From: Planctomycetota bacterium
Lineage (GTDB): Bacteria; Planctomycetota; UBA8108; SXIK01
Direction: 5' to 3'
DNA length: 64,000 bases
Assembly: GCA_965223845.1 (NCBI GenBank)
Contig: CBDCXR010000004.1
Coordinates: 2,752,001 to 2,816,000 of the forward strand
Position numbers and translations under genes: made by a program. The notes below the pieces were generated by a model that saw only the letters and a list, made by a program, of their open reading frames with translations, had not been told where the DNA came from and did not search any database. Of this stretch, positions 58,888-61,156 are shown one piece after another; positions within the stretch are counted from its first letter, which is position 1, and the number at the start of each line of letters is the position of its first letter.

Positions 58888-59112
58888 ATGGAAGTCTACT
58901 TGATCGCGTTCGCCACGTTTGCCGCCGTCATCGCCGCAATGGCGATCGGAGTCATCGTCAGCGGCCGACGCATCCGAGGGACGTGCGGCGGATTGAACGC
59001 GTGGACAGACGGTGACGGGCGGCCGATCTGCGATGCCTGCGCCGATTGTCCGGAGCAGAAGCAGAACTGCGAGCTCGAGGACGCAGCGGCGACTTCCTCC
59101 GCGCGTCGTTGA
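58888..59112 (+). CDS. nqrM: Na+-NQR maturation protein NqrM
   Basis: Single TM then MAIGVI...IRGTCGGL and a Cys-rich tail (CDACADC); canonical position after apbE. Confidence 0.88.
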   Translation: MEVYLIAFATFAAVIAAMAIGVIVSGRRIRGTCGGLNAWTDGDGRPICDACADCPEQKQNCELEDAAATSSARR

Positions 59113-59165
59113 GTGCGGTCCCCGCGCTCGGTGAACCTTCGCCAACTTCGAACGGAGATCCGCGC

Positions 59166-59558
59166 GTGACGGCCGTGTACGTTCTCCCGACTCCTTGCGC
59201 GGCGGCCGCTCGTGTCGTCGAGAGTCTTCGCGTGCCGTCGAGATTCGAGCGCGACCGAGGGCTTCTCGTCGTCGATCATCCCGAGGCGGCGGAGGTCGCG
59301 CTCGCGTGCGGTGCGCTCAGTCACGCGGCGGCACGTGAGCTGTTCGACGCTCGCCGACACCTGCTGCCGCCCCGCCGCGTCGTCGTAGCGCGGTGCGGCG
59401 TCGACTGTCCGCGCGCGCTGCGCACCTACGCCGTCGCGCCACCAGCGAGCGAATGGCTGCCCGTCGACGCTTGGATCGAGTGCTGTGCTCCCGGCCGAGA
59501 CGTACTCGCGCGAGCCCTCGCAGCGAGCGAAGCATCCGACTCGACAGATTCGCCATGA
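59166..59558 (+). CDS. Highly diverged NuoB-like (Fe-S small subunit fold) protein
   Basis: Aligns by eye along its whole length with the nuoB in this window: LPTPCAA~FGLACCA; HPEAAEVALACGALSH~[26 protein letters not shown]~[15 protein letters not shown]...WLPVDAWIECCAP~GYHV...[16 protein letters not shown] follows GGAG; TTG 59109 overlapping the nqrM stop is an alternative start. Confidence 0.75.
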   Translation: MTAVYVLPTPCAAAARVVESLRVPSRFERDRGLLVVDHPEAAEVALACGALSHAAARELFDARRHLLPPRRVVVARCGVDCPRALRTYAVAPPASEWLPVDAWIECCAPGRDVLARALAASEASDSTDSP

Positions 59559-61156
59559 GCGACGCGGGAACAGTGAATGTCTCGGCTCGACCGCGGAGAC
59601 CCGCGCTCGACGAGCAACTGCGCCATCGATTCGGATCGATCGTCAATCGGCGGACCGACGGCGCGAAGGAGGGCTCTCCGTCGATCCTCACCGTCCCGCG
59701 AGAACACGTCCTCCCCGTTCTCGCGTTTCTCGCGCGAGACGCGGATCCTCGCGCGGCGACTCTCTGGGACATCACCGTCGTCGATCACGGGGCCGGGAGG
59801 GACGTTCCGCGCTTCGAGGTCCTCTACTCCGTTCGGGACGCGACGGGCGCCGCGCTCGCCGTCTCGGTGTTCATCGCCGCGGACGATCTCGCCCTCCCGT
59901 CCTGCGTCGACCTCTGGCCGAGCGCCGAGTGGCTCGAACTCGAGGCGGAGGATTTCTTCGGTCTCGAGTTCGACGGCCATCCCCACACGCACCGCCTGTT
60001 TCTCCCCGACGACTACCCGGCGTTTCCACTCCGGCGAGAGATTCCGCTCGCCGGCGTCTCGCGTGAACGCGCGCCGCTCGCCAGCCCACCGCGCGCCGGC
60101 CGAGGGCGCTTCCGGATGGATGGAGTCGGCGACGCGCCGGTCGTCGGACCGAGCATCGAGTGGACGTCGCAAGGGGAGCGCGTCGCCGAGGTCGATGTCG
60201 CCATCGGACGATCGCACCTCGGATTTGAAAAGCGCTTTGAAGGTCTCGGCGCCGAGGAGTGCGTCGAGCTCGCCCGCCACATCGATCGGCGCGCCACGGT
60301 CCACGTCGCGTGGGCCGTCGCCCTCGCCTTCGAGCAGGCATTCGATCTCGCCGTAGATACTCGGGGCGAGACGCTCCGCGTCATCGCCGGCGAGCTCGAA
60401 CGAATCGCCGCGCATCTCGCGTGCGTGCGAGAGACGTTTCTCGCGATCGGATGCGAGCGACTCGCCGGGTCGGCGACGCGGCTTCTCGCGAGTGCGGAGA
60501 CCGCGCTGGCGAGTGCAGCGATCACCGTCGAGTTCGGAAATGCACGCGAGGCCGCGGGCTCGGCGCTCACCGAGGCGCTCGGGCTAGTGTTCGCGCGTCT
60601 TCCGCGTGGCTTGACCGATTTCCGGCAGAACTTTGCGCGGGATCGTTTCGCCGCACTTCGTCTCCGCGGGATCGGCGTCACTCGCGGCGGCTCCGCGGGA
60701 ACGGGTCCCACCGCTCGCGCCGCGGGAATCGCTCGGGATGTCAGACGCGATGCCCCCTACGGAAGATACGACGCACTCGAGTTCGACGTCCCCGTCGGCA
60801 ACGGAGGCGATGCTCTCGCTAGGCTCCAACTCCGCCTCGACGAAACGGTCGAGTCTCTGCGTGTGCTCGCGCGCGAGAGAGACGAGCTCGAGCGGCTCGG
60901 CCCGAGCGACGAGCCGAAGACGGTGGCGAGTGAACCCTCGAACCGTTACGCGCACGCGAGGGTCGAGGCTCCAGACGGCGAGATCACGGCGACGCTGGTC
61001 CTCGAAAAAGACGGAACGCCGCTCCGACTCGGGCTTCGATCCGCATCGTTCCAGCACACCGCCGCGCTGCCGAACATCCTCCGCGCCGAGTCCGTCGAAG
61101 ACGTCGCAGCGATCGGTGCGAGCCTTGGGATCCATTCCGGCCTCGTCGATCGTTGA
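59555..61156 (+). CDS. Highly diverged fused NuoC-NuoD-like protein
   Basis: NuoC part: ITVVD, RFEVLY, WPSAEWLELEAEDFFGLEFDGHP, FPLRRE. NuoD part: GRSHLGFEK, ELERIAAHL, TGPTARAAG...RDVRRDAPYGRY...FDVPVG, VEAPDGE, RSASF, terminal GLVDR. ATGA overlap with the NuoB-like stop. Confidence 0.85.
   Translation: MSDAGTVNVSARPRRPALDEQLRHRFGSIVNRRTDGAKEGSPSILTVPREHVLPVLAFLARDADPRAATLWDITVVDHGAGRDVPRFEVLYSVRDATGAALAVSVFIAADDLALPSCVDLWPSAEWLELEAEDFFGLEFDGHPHTHRLFLPDDYPAFPLRREIPLAGVSRERAPLASPPRAGRGRFRMDGVGDAPVVGPSIEWTSQGERVAEVDVAIGRSHLGFEKRFEGLGAEECVELARHIDRRATVHVAWAVALAFEQAFDLAVDTRGETLRVIAGELERIAAHLACVRETFLAIGCERLAGSATRLLASAETALASAAITVEFGNAREAAGSALTEALGLVFARLPRGLTDFRQNFARDRFAALRLRGIGVTRGGSAGTGPTARAAGIARDVRRDAPYGRYDALEFDVPVGNGGDALARLQLRLDETVESLRVLARERDELERLGPSDEPKTVASEPSNRYAHARVEAPDGEITATLVLEKDGTPLRLGLRSASFQHTAALPNILRAESVEDVAAIGASLGIHSGLVDR

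What the first reader, a model, noticed from the sequence alone, without database searches (positions are those of the whole stretch)
59109..61156. A diverged, quinone-site-dead NuoB + NuoCD pair appended to the Na+-NQR operon
Seen: immediately after nqrM come two intact ORFs joined by an ATGA overlap, with no terminator evident after nqrM. The small ORF, easily mislabelled hypothetical, aligns collinearly with NuoB. The large ORF is a NuoC-NuoD fusion. In the NuoD-like part the GPQHPxxHG loop is replaced by DGVGDAPVVG and the RMDY Tyr by HIDRR, and neither NiFe CxxC motif is present (it ends SLGIHSGLVDR). Established: that His and Tyr bind the quinone headgroup in complex I; group 4 hydrogenase large subunits need two CxxC motifs; canonical nqr operons end at apbE/nqrM. 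Inference: this is neither a hydrogenase nor a working Q-module. It may be an accessory module of Na+-NQR, such as an electron-transfer adaptor, a decoy or regulatory subunit that swaps into the neighbouring complex I, or an assembly factor. Alternatively it is a slowly decaying relic; the Ala/Arg-rich composition is compatible with relaxed selection.
Basis: partly seen in the sequence, partly recalled or inferred. Interest (0 to 1): 0.85.

Follow-up and report, generated by a model that had tools for sequence, protein, structure and literature searches.

The report
Ghost complex I genes behind Na+-NQR
Two intact but very diverged complex I genes after the Na+-NQR operon are leftovers of a second complex I operon whose slot NQR now occupies; they can no longer bind quinone, so this looks like one respiratory enzyme replacing another rather than a new NQR accessory.

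Summary
After nqrM lie a small ORF (B', 59109 or 59166 to 59558) and a NuoC-NuoD fusion (CD', 59555-61156), joined by an ATGA overlap. CD' clearly matches the complex I 30-kDa and 49-kDa families. B' matches NuoB only weakly, but specifically. CD' has lost all three quinone ligands (no His in the loop, Tyr87->R245, Asp139->A297) and has no CxxC motif. B' keeps 2 of the 4 N2 cysteines.

The "NQR accessory" reading is not supported. In order-level relatives, nadA and cysS-tyrS bracket a 14-gene nuoA-N operon. Here the same slot holds nqr, then B'-CD', three unrelated genes, and two further ghost genes just outside the window: NuoH-like H' and antiporter-like M', also joined by ATGA. A same-family relative with nqr has none of these genes.

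The pair is therefore an in-situ remnant of the NADH-oxidising complex I, displaced by Na+-NQR. It is not a purely neutral wreck. About 1,480 codons stay open at roughly 30% identity, where 0 of 200 neutral simulations did. C-D became fused, and a Q-dead fused relative exists at 40% identity. Present function is unknown, no RNA data exist, and close orthologue context could not be retrieved.

The parts
37499..49368 (-). Canonical 11-gene-type nuo operon. Identified here: nuoA, B, C, D, H, I, L, M, N. No nuoE, F or G.
   Evidence: Pfam hits. This is the only other NuoD, NuoC and NuoB in the genome.
50064..51332 (-). nadA (quinolinate synthase). Left synteny marker of the slot.
   Evidence: Pfam NadA 8.5e-116. 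78% identical orthologues sit between the two nuo operons in G008 and G011.
51646..57698 (+). nqrA-F (Na+-NQR structural genes).
   Evidence: Pfam hits.
57709..58827 (+). apbE (flavin transferase).
   Evidence: Pfam ApbE 7.3e-95.
58888..59112 (+). nqrM.
   Evidence: Pfam NqrM is only E 0.054, below its cut-off. However, 54-67% identical ORFs follow apbE in G003 and G016.
59109..59558 (+). B': diverged NuoB-like ORF, 149 aa from TTG 59109 or 130 aa from GTG 59166. It keeps Cys96 and Cys126. The canonical tandem Cys positions are A34 and R35. It has extra Cys at 30, 100 and 125.
   Evidence: Predicted to bind CD'.
59555..61156 (+). CD': fused NuoC-NuoD paralogue, 533 aa. ATGA overlap with B'.
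60119..60148 (+). Residues 189-198 (DGVGDAPVVG), in place of the His-bearing beta1-beta2 loop (GPQHPxxHG).
   Evidence: The region does not align to Thermus Nqo4.
60287..60289 (+). Codon for R245, at the position of the quinone-binding Tyr87 of Thermus Nqo4.
   Evidence: Alignment; numbering.
60443..60445 (+). Codon for A297, at the position of Asp139 of Thermus Nqo4.
   Evidence: Alignment; numbering.
61402..63495 (.). Unrelated genes standing where nuoE-G would be: a pilin-like N_methyl protein (61402-61896, +) and a PQQ beta-propeller protein (61999-63495, -). A WelO5-like oxygenase follows beyond the window.
   Evidence: Pfam hits.

Best explanation
B' and CD' are the in-situ, heavily remodelled descendants of nuoB and nuoC+nuoD of the organism's second complex I operon, the NADH-oxidising 14-gene type. 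The nqr operon now stands at the head of that operon's slot, between nadA and B'. Its acquisition probably made the NADH-dependent complex I redundant (inferred).

Four ORFs of that operon survive, in the original order and orientation:
- B'
- CD'
- H' (NuoH-like), after a 3.6-kb gap
- M' (antiporter-like), adjoining H'
The last two lie just outside the window.

The set has lost:
- the three quinone-headgroup ligands
- two of the four N2 cysteines
- NuoA, E, F, G, I, J, K and L
- as far as a weak alignment shows, the TM7 lysine of the antiporter-like subunit

So it cannot reduce quinone, cannot make H2 and has no electron input.

I think it most likely that the four proteins still fold and assemble into a redox-dead complex-I-like subcomplex, with the B'-CD' heterodimer sitting on H'-M'. 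This subcomplex would have been kept under relaxed purifying selection for a non-redox role that is not identified here. Its link to Na+-NQR would then be historical and transcriptional (read-through from nqrM) and not mechanistic.

Shown: homology, loss of residues, synteny and intact frames.
Inferred: assembly, selection and displacement by NQR.
For: Synteny.
- In G008 and G011 (same order) the layout is: 11-gene nuo, nadA, then a 14-gene-type operon with nuoA, B, C, D, E, F, G, H, I and L, M, N identified, then cysS and tyrS.
- In this genome, nadA and cysS-tyrS bracket nqr, B', CD', three unrelated genes, H', M' and further genes. Orientation and order are the same.
- The genome has no other NuoD, NuoC, NuoB or NuoH besides the 11-gene operon.

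Ancestry.
- H' matches directly only the NuoH of the 14-gene operons of relatives (E 2e-5 to 7e-4; placed).
- CD' lies within a 30-row clade (SH-aLRT 99) that holds every canonical NuoD in the tree and excludes all six NiFe-hydrogenase rows and five of the seven Ehr-like rows.
- The tree that holds CD' together with P0016 and P0061 is 20.25 log-likelihood units better than the free-search tree (p-AU 0.77).
- That group nests with the 14-type NuoD of same-family genome G002 (SH-aLRT 98).

Homology of the weakly matching members.
- hhalign: H' vs NuoH 70% (E 4e-5); M' vs NuoN 51% and NuoM 23%; B' vs NuoB 52%.
- Off-target pairings of the three ghost proteins score at most 0.3% (M' against the related NuoL, 2.3%). 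All 18 NqrB/D/E control comparisons score at most 0.5%, except NqrB-NuoN at 9%.
- NCBIfam: NuoH 5.2e-5 and NDH subunit 4 3.7e-4.

Dead chemistry.

Signs of continued selection.
- No stop or frameshift in about 1,480 codons.
- In a substitution-only neutral simulation of the genome's own nuoC+nuoD drifted to 35% identity, 0 of 200 runs stayed open, with a mean of 9.6 stops.
- C and D are separate genes in G002 and G008 but fused here and in P0016 and P0020.
- ATGA overlaps occur at both B'/CD' and H'/M'. The H'/M' overlap must postdate the loss of nuoI-L.
- P0016 is 40% identical, 516 aa and intact. It shares the Asp139->Ala change and also lacks the loop His and the Tyr.

Assembly. The predicted B'-CD' complex has ipSAE 0.78, against 0.00 for the best of 3 controls. 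That mark was reached by 58 of 80 solved complexes and 2 of 110 mismatched pairs. The runs agree in at least 90% of contacts, and partner pLDDT is 67-72. NuoB-NuoD is a solved textbook pair, so this shows likeness to that interface, not binding.
Against: - No close orthologue with genomic context was found, so there is no dN/dS and no test of conserved linkage.
- The same-family genome G003 has nqr and none of the four genes, so they are dispensable.
- Codon signal is weak. B' scores -0.06 to -0.01, level with its antisense frame. CD' scores 0.24, against 0.26-0.89 for neighbouring genes. GC3 is 0.71-0.77 against 0.80-0.88.
- B' was not found as a called protein.
- CD' sits on a very long branch (1.92 substitutions per site), and its exact placement was unresolved in the free tree searches.
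- The residue-level statements for M' and H' rest on local alignments of low probability.
- The neutral simulation ignores indels and uses a crude mutation model. It cannot exclude a recent death after a long selected history.
Confidence: 0.5

Rival explanations
1. Pure relic. All four ORFs are already functionless and merely have not yet acquired a disabling mutation. They are pseudogenes in all but appearance, transcribed if at all by read-through.
For: - They sit in the slot of a lost operon.
- They are absent from the nqr-bearing sister genome G003.
- Every catalytic residue that was checked is gone.
- Codon bias is weak, weakest of all in B'.
- B' was not found as a called gene.
- High G+C keeps frames open for longer.
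Against: - Divergence to about 30% identity without a single stop or frameshift in about 1,480 codons. In the simulation, 0 of 200 neutral runs stayed open.
- The C-D fusion and two ATGA junctions are derived features.
- 39 columns are invariant across 12 diverged relatives, CD' included.
- A Q-dead fused relative persists at 40% identity.
- The fold and the interface are still predicted with confidence.
These points show past selection. They do not exclude a recent death.
Confidence: 0.3
2. Swap-in subunits. B'-CD' dock on the membrane arm of the neighbouring 11-subunit complex I in place of NuoB, C and D. They would act as a plug or regulator that blocks the quinone site.
For: - The canonical operon lies 10 kb away.
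- B'-CD' keep a NuoB-NuoD-like interface in the model.
Against: - The module has its own NuoH-like and antiporter-like partners downstream, so it need not borrow any.
- B' lacks most of the N-terminal segment that precedes the Cys motif in canonical NuoB: about 10-29 residues against about 45. Its role in membrane contact is recalled, not tested here.
Confidence: 0.08
3. Accessory of Na+-NQR. B'-CD' would act as an electron-transfer adaptor, assembly factor or extra subunit of NQR.
For: - They lie directly downstream of nqrM with overlapping or near-overlapping codons.
- No terminator-like site was found, so co-transcription is plausible.
- B' retains several cysteines.
Against: - The linkage is not conserved. 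None of the 3 relatives with sequence downstream of apbE has the pair.
- Among 196 loci fetched around NuoCD relatives, only the window's own locus carries nqr.
- Synteny explains the adjacency by history.
- A full-text search for 'nqrM' together with 'Planctomycetes' found 0 papers.
Confidence: 0.07

Closest known systems
The 14-gene-type complex I (nuoA-N) operon of order-level relatives (G008:C100 and G011:C52)
   Same: - Same genomic slot between nadA and cysS-tyrS, same orientation, and same gene order B, C, D ... H ... M/N.
- CD' and H' are nearest to this operon's type. The relatives of CD' nest with the 14-type NuoD of G002, and H' matches only the NuoH genes lying in these operons.
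   Different: - nuoA, E, F, G, I, J, K and L are gone.
- C and D are fused.
- Identity is down to 25-35%.
- The quinone ligands, the tandem N2 cysteines and the antiporter lysine are lost.
[quoted passage not shown] The original paper, Marreiros et al. 2013, was not seen.
   Same: A small complex-I-like gene set with NuoB-, NuoD-, NuoH- and antiporter-like subunits. The large subunit lacks the Ni-Fe cysteines, and the catalytic activity is unknown.
   Different: - Ehr are described as relatives of group 4 hydrogenases. CD' falls on the complex I side of the tree, outside all six NiFe rows and five of the seven Ehr-like rows.
- No NuoI-like ferredoxin subunit was found.
- The set is split into two units by unrelated genes.
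Natural NuoD lacking H38, Y87 and D139 in Sulfolobus, Nautiliales and Desulfurobacteriales (passages of PMC4758237)
   Same: NuoD homologues without the residues that hydrogen-bond the quinone headgroup.
   Different: Those belong to full-size Nuo complexes, and the paper reads them as pre-quinone ancestral states. Here the loss is secondary, in a paralogue derived from a quinone-type NuoD.
Fused NuoCD of solved complex I structures (best sequence match 7q5y_B, 'NuoC/D 2', then 7awt_D)
   Same: C-D fusion architecture. The best sequence matches among solved structures have E 1.5e-38 and 2.3e-28.
   Different: The hits align at positions 21-177 and 205-456, but not across the His-loop region (residues 178-204). 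No quinone-binding residues remain.

Membership tests
Complex I 49-kDa/NuoD (quinone-reducing) | Matches the Complex1_49kDa profile above its curated cut-off | tested here: met
   115.8 bits against a cut-off of 24, E 2.3e-33.
Complex I 49-kDa/NuoD (quinone-reducing) | His of the beta1-beta2 loop (Thermus Nqo4 H38) that binds the quinone headgroup | tested here: not met
   The loop reads DGVGDAPVVG, with no His. The region does not align to Nqo4. The role of H38 is taken from PMC4758237 passages.
Complex I 49-kDa/NuoD (quinone-reducing) | Tyr87 and Asp139 (Thermus numbering) | tested here: not met
   Y87->R245 and D139->A297 in the alignment to 2fug_4.
Complex I 30-kDa/NuoC | Matches the Complex1_30kDa profile above its cut-off | tested here: met
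   99.3 bits against a cut-off of 22.5, over residues 45-167.
Group 4 [NiFe]-hydrogenase large subunit | N-terminal and C-terminal CxxC motifs that hold Ni-Fe | tested here: not met
   Cys occur only at 117, 236, 290 and 300. The C-terminus is GIHSGLVDR. In the tree, CD' lies outside the NiFe rows.
Complex I 20-kDa/NuoB (PSST) | Matches the family profile above its curated cut-off | tested here: not met
   Pfam 13.1 bits against a cut-off of 27. NCBIfam 21.2 bits against a cut-off of 116. Remote homology is nonetheless specific: 36 of 36 PDB hits are NuoB-type, and hhalign gives 52% against at most 0.2% for other subunit alignments.
Complex I 20-kDa/NuoB (PSST) | Four Cys ligands of cluster N2, including the tandem CC | tested here: not met
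   The tandem CC positions are A34 and R35. C96 and C126 are kept. Extra Cys occur at 30, 100 and 125. Whether these still hold a cluster cannot be tested here.
Ehr complexes | Large subunit lacks the Ni-Fe cysteines; NuoB-, NuoH- and antiporter-like partners are present | tested here: met
   The partner matches are weak.
Ehr complexes | Phylogenetic affiliation with group 4 hydrogenases | tested here: not met
   CD' lies in the clade (SH-aLRT 99) that holds all canonical NuoD rows and excludes the six NiFe rows and five of the seven Ehr-like rows.
Na+-NQR operon component | Conserved linkage with nqrA-F/apbE/nqrM in other genomes | tested here: not met
   Linkage is seen in none of the 3 relatives with sequence downstream of apbE (G003, G016, G021). 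In G017 the contig ends inside apbE.
Complex I NuoH (for H', outside the window) | Family profile match and signature loop motifs | tested here: inconclusive
   - NCBIfam NuoH E 5.2e-5, far below its cut-off.
- PF00146 six-frame search: 21.5 bits, or 31.5 with neighbouring matches in the frame.
- hhalign 70%.
- The PRxRxxQ motif is kept, and 14 of 33 conserved columns are identical.
- The AF2 model was too poor to use.

The most novel reading that the evidence does not exclude
The four ghost proteins (B', CD', H', M') form a stable complex-I-derived pseudoenzyme that has lost all redox chemistry. It would have been recruited, after Na+-NQR took over NADH oxidation, for a new non-redox membrane function tied to NQR. 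One example would be an ion conduit or gate that couples the Na+ cycle of NQR to the proton cycle. The peripheral half would be expressed from the nqr transcript to keep the two in step.
Probability: 0.1. Interest if true: 0.85.

Novelty: new variant of a known kind. Interest (0 to 1): 0.5.

Why it matters
The locus looks like a respiratory enzyme replacement caught part-way. Na+-NQR sits exactly where the NADH-oxidising complex I operon lies in relatives, and four remodelled, catalytically dead complex I genes remain behind it.

Three points follow:
- It gives a dated, syntenic example of how complex I modules are lost, or perhaps repurposed.
- It adds a complex-I-side counterpart to the hydrogenase-side Ehr complexes.
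- It offers a natural set of Q-site-dead NuoB, NuoCD, NuoH and antiporter proteins. Their ability to fold and assemble without chemistry could be tested.

It also warns annotators. CD' will be labelled 'NADH-quinone oxidoreductase subunit C/D' although it cannot bind quinone. B' was not found among called proteins at all.

Tried and rejected
- Word-based protein search with B' found nothing, not even B' itself. The same search with H' found only H' itself.
It was rerun with a 4-row alignment.
They returned only relatives at 21-32% identity, so neither shows that orthologues are absent.
- Of 193 NuoD-like ORFs in the fetched loci outside this genome, 191 carry His and Tyr, 1 is a NiFe type and 1 is Ehr-like. 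None resembles CD'.
- The single-sequence AF2 model of B' (pLDDT 55) gave no Foldseek match with E at or below 0.001.
- The single-sequence AF2 model of H' had pLDDT 47.6 and was not searched. Both models are too poor to say anything about fold.
- BLASTP of H' and M' against the genome's own NuoH, NuoM and NuoN found nothing. Only profile methods see them.
- ESM Atlas gave leads only, with scores under 0.9: B' to PF01058 clusters (0.84) and H' to PF00146 clusters (0.83).
- No RNA holder was listed among the sequencing runs.
- Laid contigs show the assembly is sound: one contig covers 57700-61400 with 0 differences. Two identical 151-nt pieces of CD' occur in a run of another study. Neither result bears on expression.
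- Rfam found no match in 50000-64000.
- The FastTree placement of CD' beside P0069 was a long-branch join and was discarded.
- No NuoI-, J- or K-like ORF was found by Pfam in the stretch up to cysS.
- I considered horizontal acquisition of the 15-kb stretch. Nothing pointed to it: composition is similar and no Pfam hit was to a mobile-element family. I did not test it further.
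Full report
WHAT IS THERE

The window carries nqrA-F (51646-57698), apbE (57709-58827) and a 74-codon nqrM (58888-59112) on the plus strand. 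A small ORF, B', follows in another frame. It runs to 59558 and can start at TTG 59109, whose last base begins the nqrM stop codon. It can also start at GTG 59166, which has GGAG 7-10 nt upstream (read). The 533-codon ORF CD' starts at ATG 59555 and overlaps the stop of B' by ATGA. A simple scan found no plus-strand terminator-like site in 57500-62000. One contig of a public run covers 57700-61400 with no difference, so the junctions are not assembly errors.

CD' IS A NuoC-NuoD FUSION

Pfam gives Complex1_30kDa at 3e-28 (residues 45-167) and Complex1_49kDa at 2.3e-33. All 22 NCBIfam families listed are C or D subunits of Nuo, Ndh or Fpo type, all far below their equivalog cut-offs. CD' is 29% identical to the genome's own NuoD. 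Its best solved relatives are fused NuoCD chains of complex I.

- In an alignment with the genome's own NuoD and the 150 best library hits, CD' reads DGVGDAPVVG where NuoD has GPQHPSTHG.
- It reads HIDRR where NuoD has RMDY.
- It ends GIHSGLVDR.

Aligned to Thermus Nqo4, Tyr87 is R245 and Asp139 is A297. The His38 loop does not align at all. The roles of H38, Y87 and D139 are taken from passages of PMC4758237. CD' has four cysteines, none in a CxxC arrangement.

B' IS A REAL BUT BARELY DETECTABLE NuoB HOMOLOGUE

- Pfam Oxidored_q6 gives E 0.083, below its cut-off.
- NCBIfam NuoB gives E 1.7e-4, and all six families listed are NuoB.
- BLASTP against the genome's own NuoB gives E 5e-5.
- All 36 of 36 PDB sequence hits at E up to 10 are NuoB, PSST or NdhK, aligned collinearly over residues 31-134.
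- hhalign gives 52% probability against a NuoB alignment and at most 0.2% against NuoA, H, L, M and N alignments.

In these alignments the tandem Cys of the N2 site are A34 and R35. C96 and C126 are kept, and extra Cys stand at 30, 100 and 125. Whether a cluster is still bound cannot be decided here.

There are weak points. B' was not found among called proteins. Its codon score ties with that of its antisense frame.

A complex prediction of B' with CD' reached ipSAE 0.78, against 0.00 for the best of three controls. That mark was reached by 58 of 80 solved complexes and 2 of 110 mismatched pairs. The runs agree in at least 90% of contacts, and partner pLDDT is 67-72. The interface involves the C30 region of B', and the degenerate loop, the GRSHLGFEK stretch and the HIDRR stretch of CD'. 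NuoB-NuoD is a solved textbook pair, so this shows likeness to that interface, not that the copies bind.

MORE GHOSTS OUTSIDE THE WINDOW

A whole-genome search with the NuoH family found a weak second match 4.3 kb beyond CD'. I fetched 20 kb from there as locus L206, where position x equals window position x + 60999. Two ORFs stand out:

- H' (L206:3794-4996, 400 aa). It is a called protein with no relatives in the word-based search. It matches NCBIfam NuoH at 5.2e-5 and a NuoH alignment at 70% by hhalign. It keeps the PRxRxxQ loop motif and 14 of 33 conserved columns.
- M' (L206:4993-6255). It matches NDH subunit 4 at 3.7e-4 and Proton_antipo_M at 0.0045. hhalign gives 51% against NuoN and 23% against NuoM. 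In those weak alignments the TM7 lysine is Val and the TM8 lysine is Glu.

Controls with NqrB, D and E against all six alignments scored at most 0.5%, except NqrB against NuoN at 9% over 21 columns. H' and M' also overlap by ATGA.

Between CD' and H' lie a pilin-like gene, a PQQ beta-propeller gene and a WelO5-like oxygenase gene. No NuoI-, J- or K-like ORF was found.

WHERE THE SET COMES FROM

The genome has one canonical nuo operon, on the minus strand at 37499-49368. It is of the 11-gene type, without nuoEFG. The genome has no other NuoD, C, B or H.

In order-level relatives G008 and G011 the layout is:
- 11-gene nuo
- nadA
- a second operon, divergent from the 11-gene nuo operon, with nuoA, B, C, D, E, F, G, H, I and L, M, N identified
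- cysS and tyrS

In this genome the same markers, nadA (50064-51332) and cysS-tyrS (L206:13552-16196), bracket nqr, B', CD', three unrelated genes, H', M' and a few more genes. Orientation and order are the same.

In same-family genome G003, which has nqr, cysS follows nqrM after 133 bp, and none of the four genes is present. G016 and G021 also lack them downstream of apbE.

Sequence agrees with synteny:
- H' directly matches only the NuoH genes that lie in the 14-gene operons of relatives.
- CD' falls in a clade (SH-aLRT 99) that holds all canonical NuoD rows and excludes the six NiFe-hydrogenase rows and five of the seven Ehr-like rows.
- Holding CD' together with P0016 and P0061 gives a tree 20.25 log-likelihood units better than the short free search (p-AU 0.77).
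- That group nests with the 14-type NuoD of same-family genome G002 (SH-aLRT 98; L014 read).

The adjacency to nqr is therefore historical. nqr stands at the head of the old operon's slot. That Na+-NQR made the NADH-oxidising complex I redundant is my inference. It fits the small sample in this family:
- G000 and G003 have nqr and no canonical 14-type operon.
- G001 and G002 had no nqrF match at E 1e-60 or better and carry the 14-type NuoC and NuoD.

G002 is only about 80% complete.

RELIC OR REMODELLED MODULE?

Against simple decay:
- About 1,480 codons in four ORFs carry no stop or frameshift, although CD' is only 25-35% identical to the 14-type NuoC and NuoD of relatives.
- CD' sits on a branch of 1.92 substitutions per site.
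- In a crude substitution-only simulation, the genome's own nuoC+nuoD was drifted to 35% identity. None of 200 runs stayed open, with a mean of 9.6 stops.
- C and D are separate genes in G002 and G008 but fused here.
- The H'/M' ATGA junction must have formed after nuoI-L were lost.
- CD' keeps all 39 columns that are invariant across 12 diverged relatives.
- P0016, from a 2.5-kb metagenome contig, is 40% identical. It is also fused, lacks the loop and the Tyr, and shares Asp139->Ala. P0020 is similar.

For decay:
- G003 shows the genes are dispensable.
- Codon bias is low: GC3 is 0.71-0.77 against 0.80-0.88, and codon scores are -0.06 to 0.34 against 0.26-0.89.
- B' is at the edge of detectability.
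- No close orthologue was found, so dN/dS cannot be computed.

Of 193 NuoD-like ORFs in the fetched loci outside this genome, 191 are canonical and none resembles CD'. No RNA run was listed.

My odds:
- about 0.5 for a still-selected, redox-dead subcomplex
- 0.3 for a pure relic
- under 0.1 each for swap-in subunits and for an NQR accessory

COMPARISON WITH WHAT IS KNOWN

The nearest named class is Ehr, the hydrogenase-related complexes without Ni-Fe ligands and of unknown activity (passages of PMC6349859 and PMC4758237). This set resembles Ehr in composition and in having a dead site. It differs in descending from a quinone-type complex I, in lacking a NuoI-like subunit, and in being split by unrelated genes.

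NuoD without H38, Y87 and D139 is known in full Nuo complexes of Sulfolobus and some Epsilon- and Aquificae-type lineages. There it is read as ancestral; here it is secondary.

Full-text searches for nqrM with Planctomycetes found 0 papers. Searches for NuoD paralogues in Planctomycetes listed nothing on this.

VERDICT

The NQR-accessory interpretation is not supported. The relic idea is right about origin, but selection has acted for most of the divergence. I rate the finding as a new variant of a known kind, of moderate interest.

Noticed in passing
L206:3794-6255 (equivalent to window positions 64793-67254, beyond the window end): Two further ghost complex I genes: H' (NuoH-like, 400 aa) and M' (antiporter-like, 420 aa). 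They are joined by an ATGA overlap. Together with B' and CD' they make a four-gene set.
   Followed up: yes
window 37499-49368 (-): The only canonical complex I of the genome is an 11-gene type without nuoE, F or G, so it has no NADH-oxidising module of its own. A single NuoF-family match lies about 2.2 Mb away (G000:C4:4986311-4986820).
   Followed up: partly
window 44907-46403 (-): The longest ORF over the canonical nuoH is 498 aa, but the NADHdh domain starts at residue 155 and the ORF overlaps nuoD. The true start is probably much further in.
   Followed up: no
window 58888-59112: nqrM scores below the Pfam cut-off (E 0.054). It is nonetheless 54-67% identical to ORFs after apbE in G003 and G016. 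This is a diverged NqrM lineage.
   Followed up: partly
L206:2527-3492 (-): A WelO5-like 2OG/Fe(II) oxygenase or halogenase-family gene (Pfam PF22814, 1.8e-17) sits between CD' and H', where nuoE-G lie in relatives.
   Followed up: no
relatives G000-G024: nqr is patchy. NqrF was found at E 1e-60 or better in 5 of 25 genomes, including this one. Within the family it was found in the two genomes that showed no 14-gene-type NuoC/NuoD match.
   Followed up: partly
proteins P0062, P0020, P0061, P0016: Relatives of the planctomycete-type 14-gene NuoD show graded loss of the quinone-site residues. Several lineages may be degrading or repurposing this subunit independently.
   Followed up: partly
window 60337-60487 and 60575-60725: Two 151-nt contigs of a run from a different study and species label (X5) are identical to CD'. 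The same or a near-identical strain occurs there at low depth.
   Followed up: no
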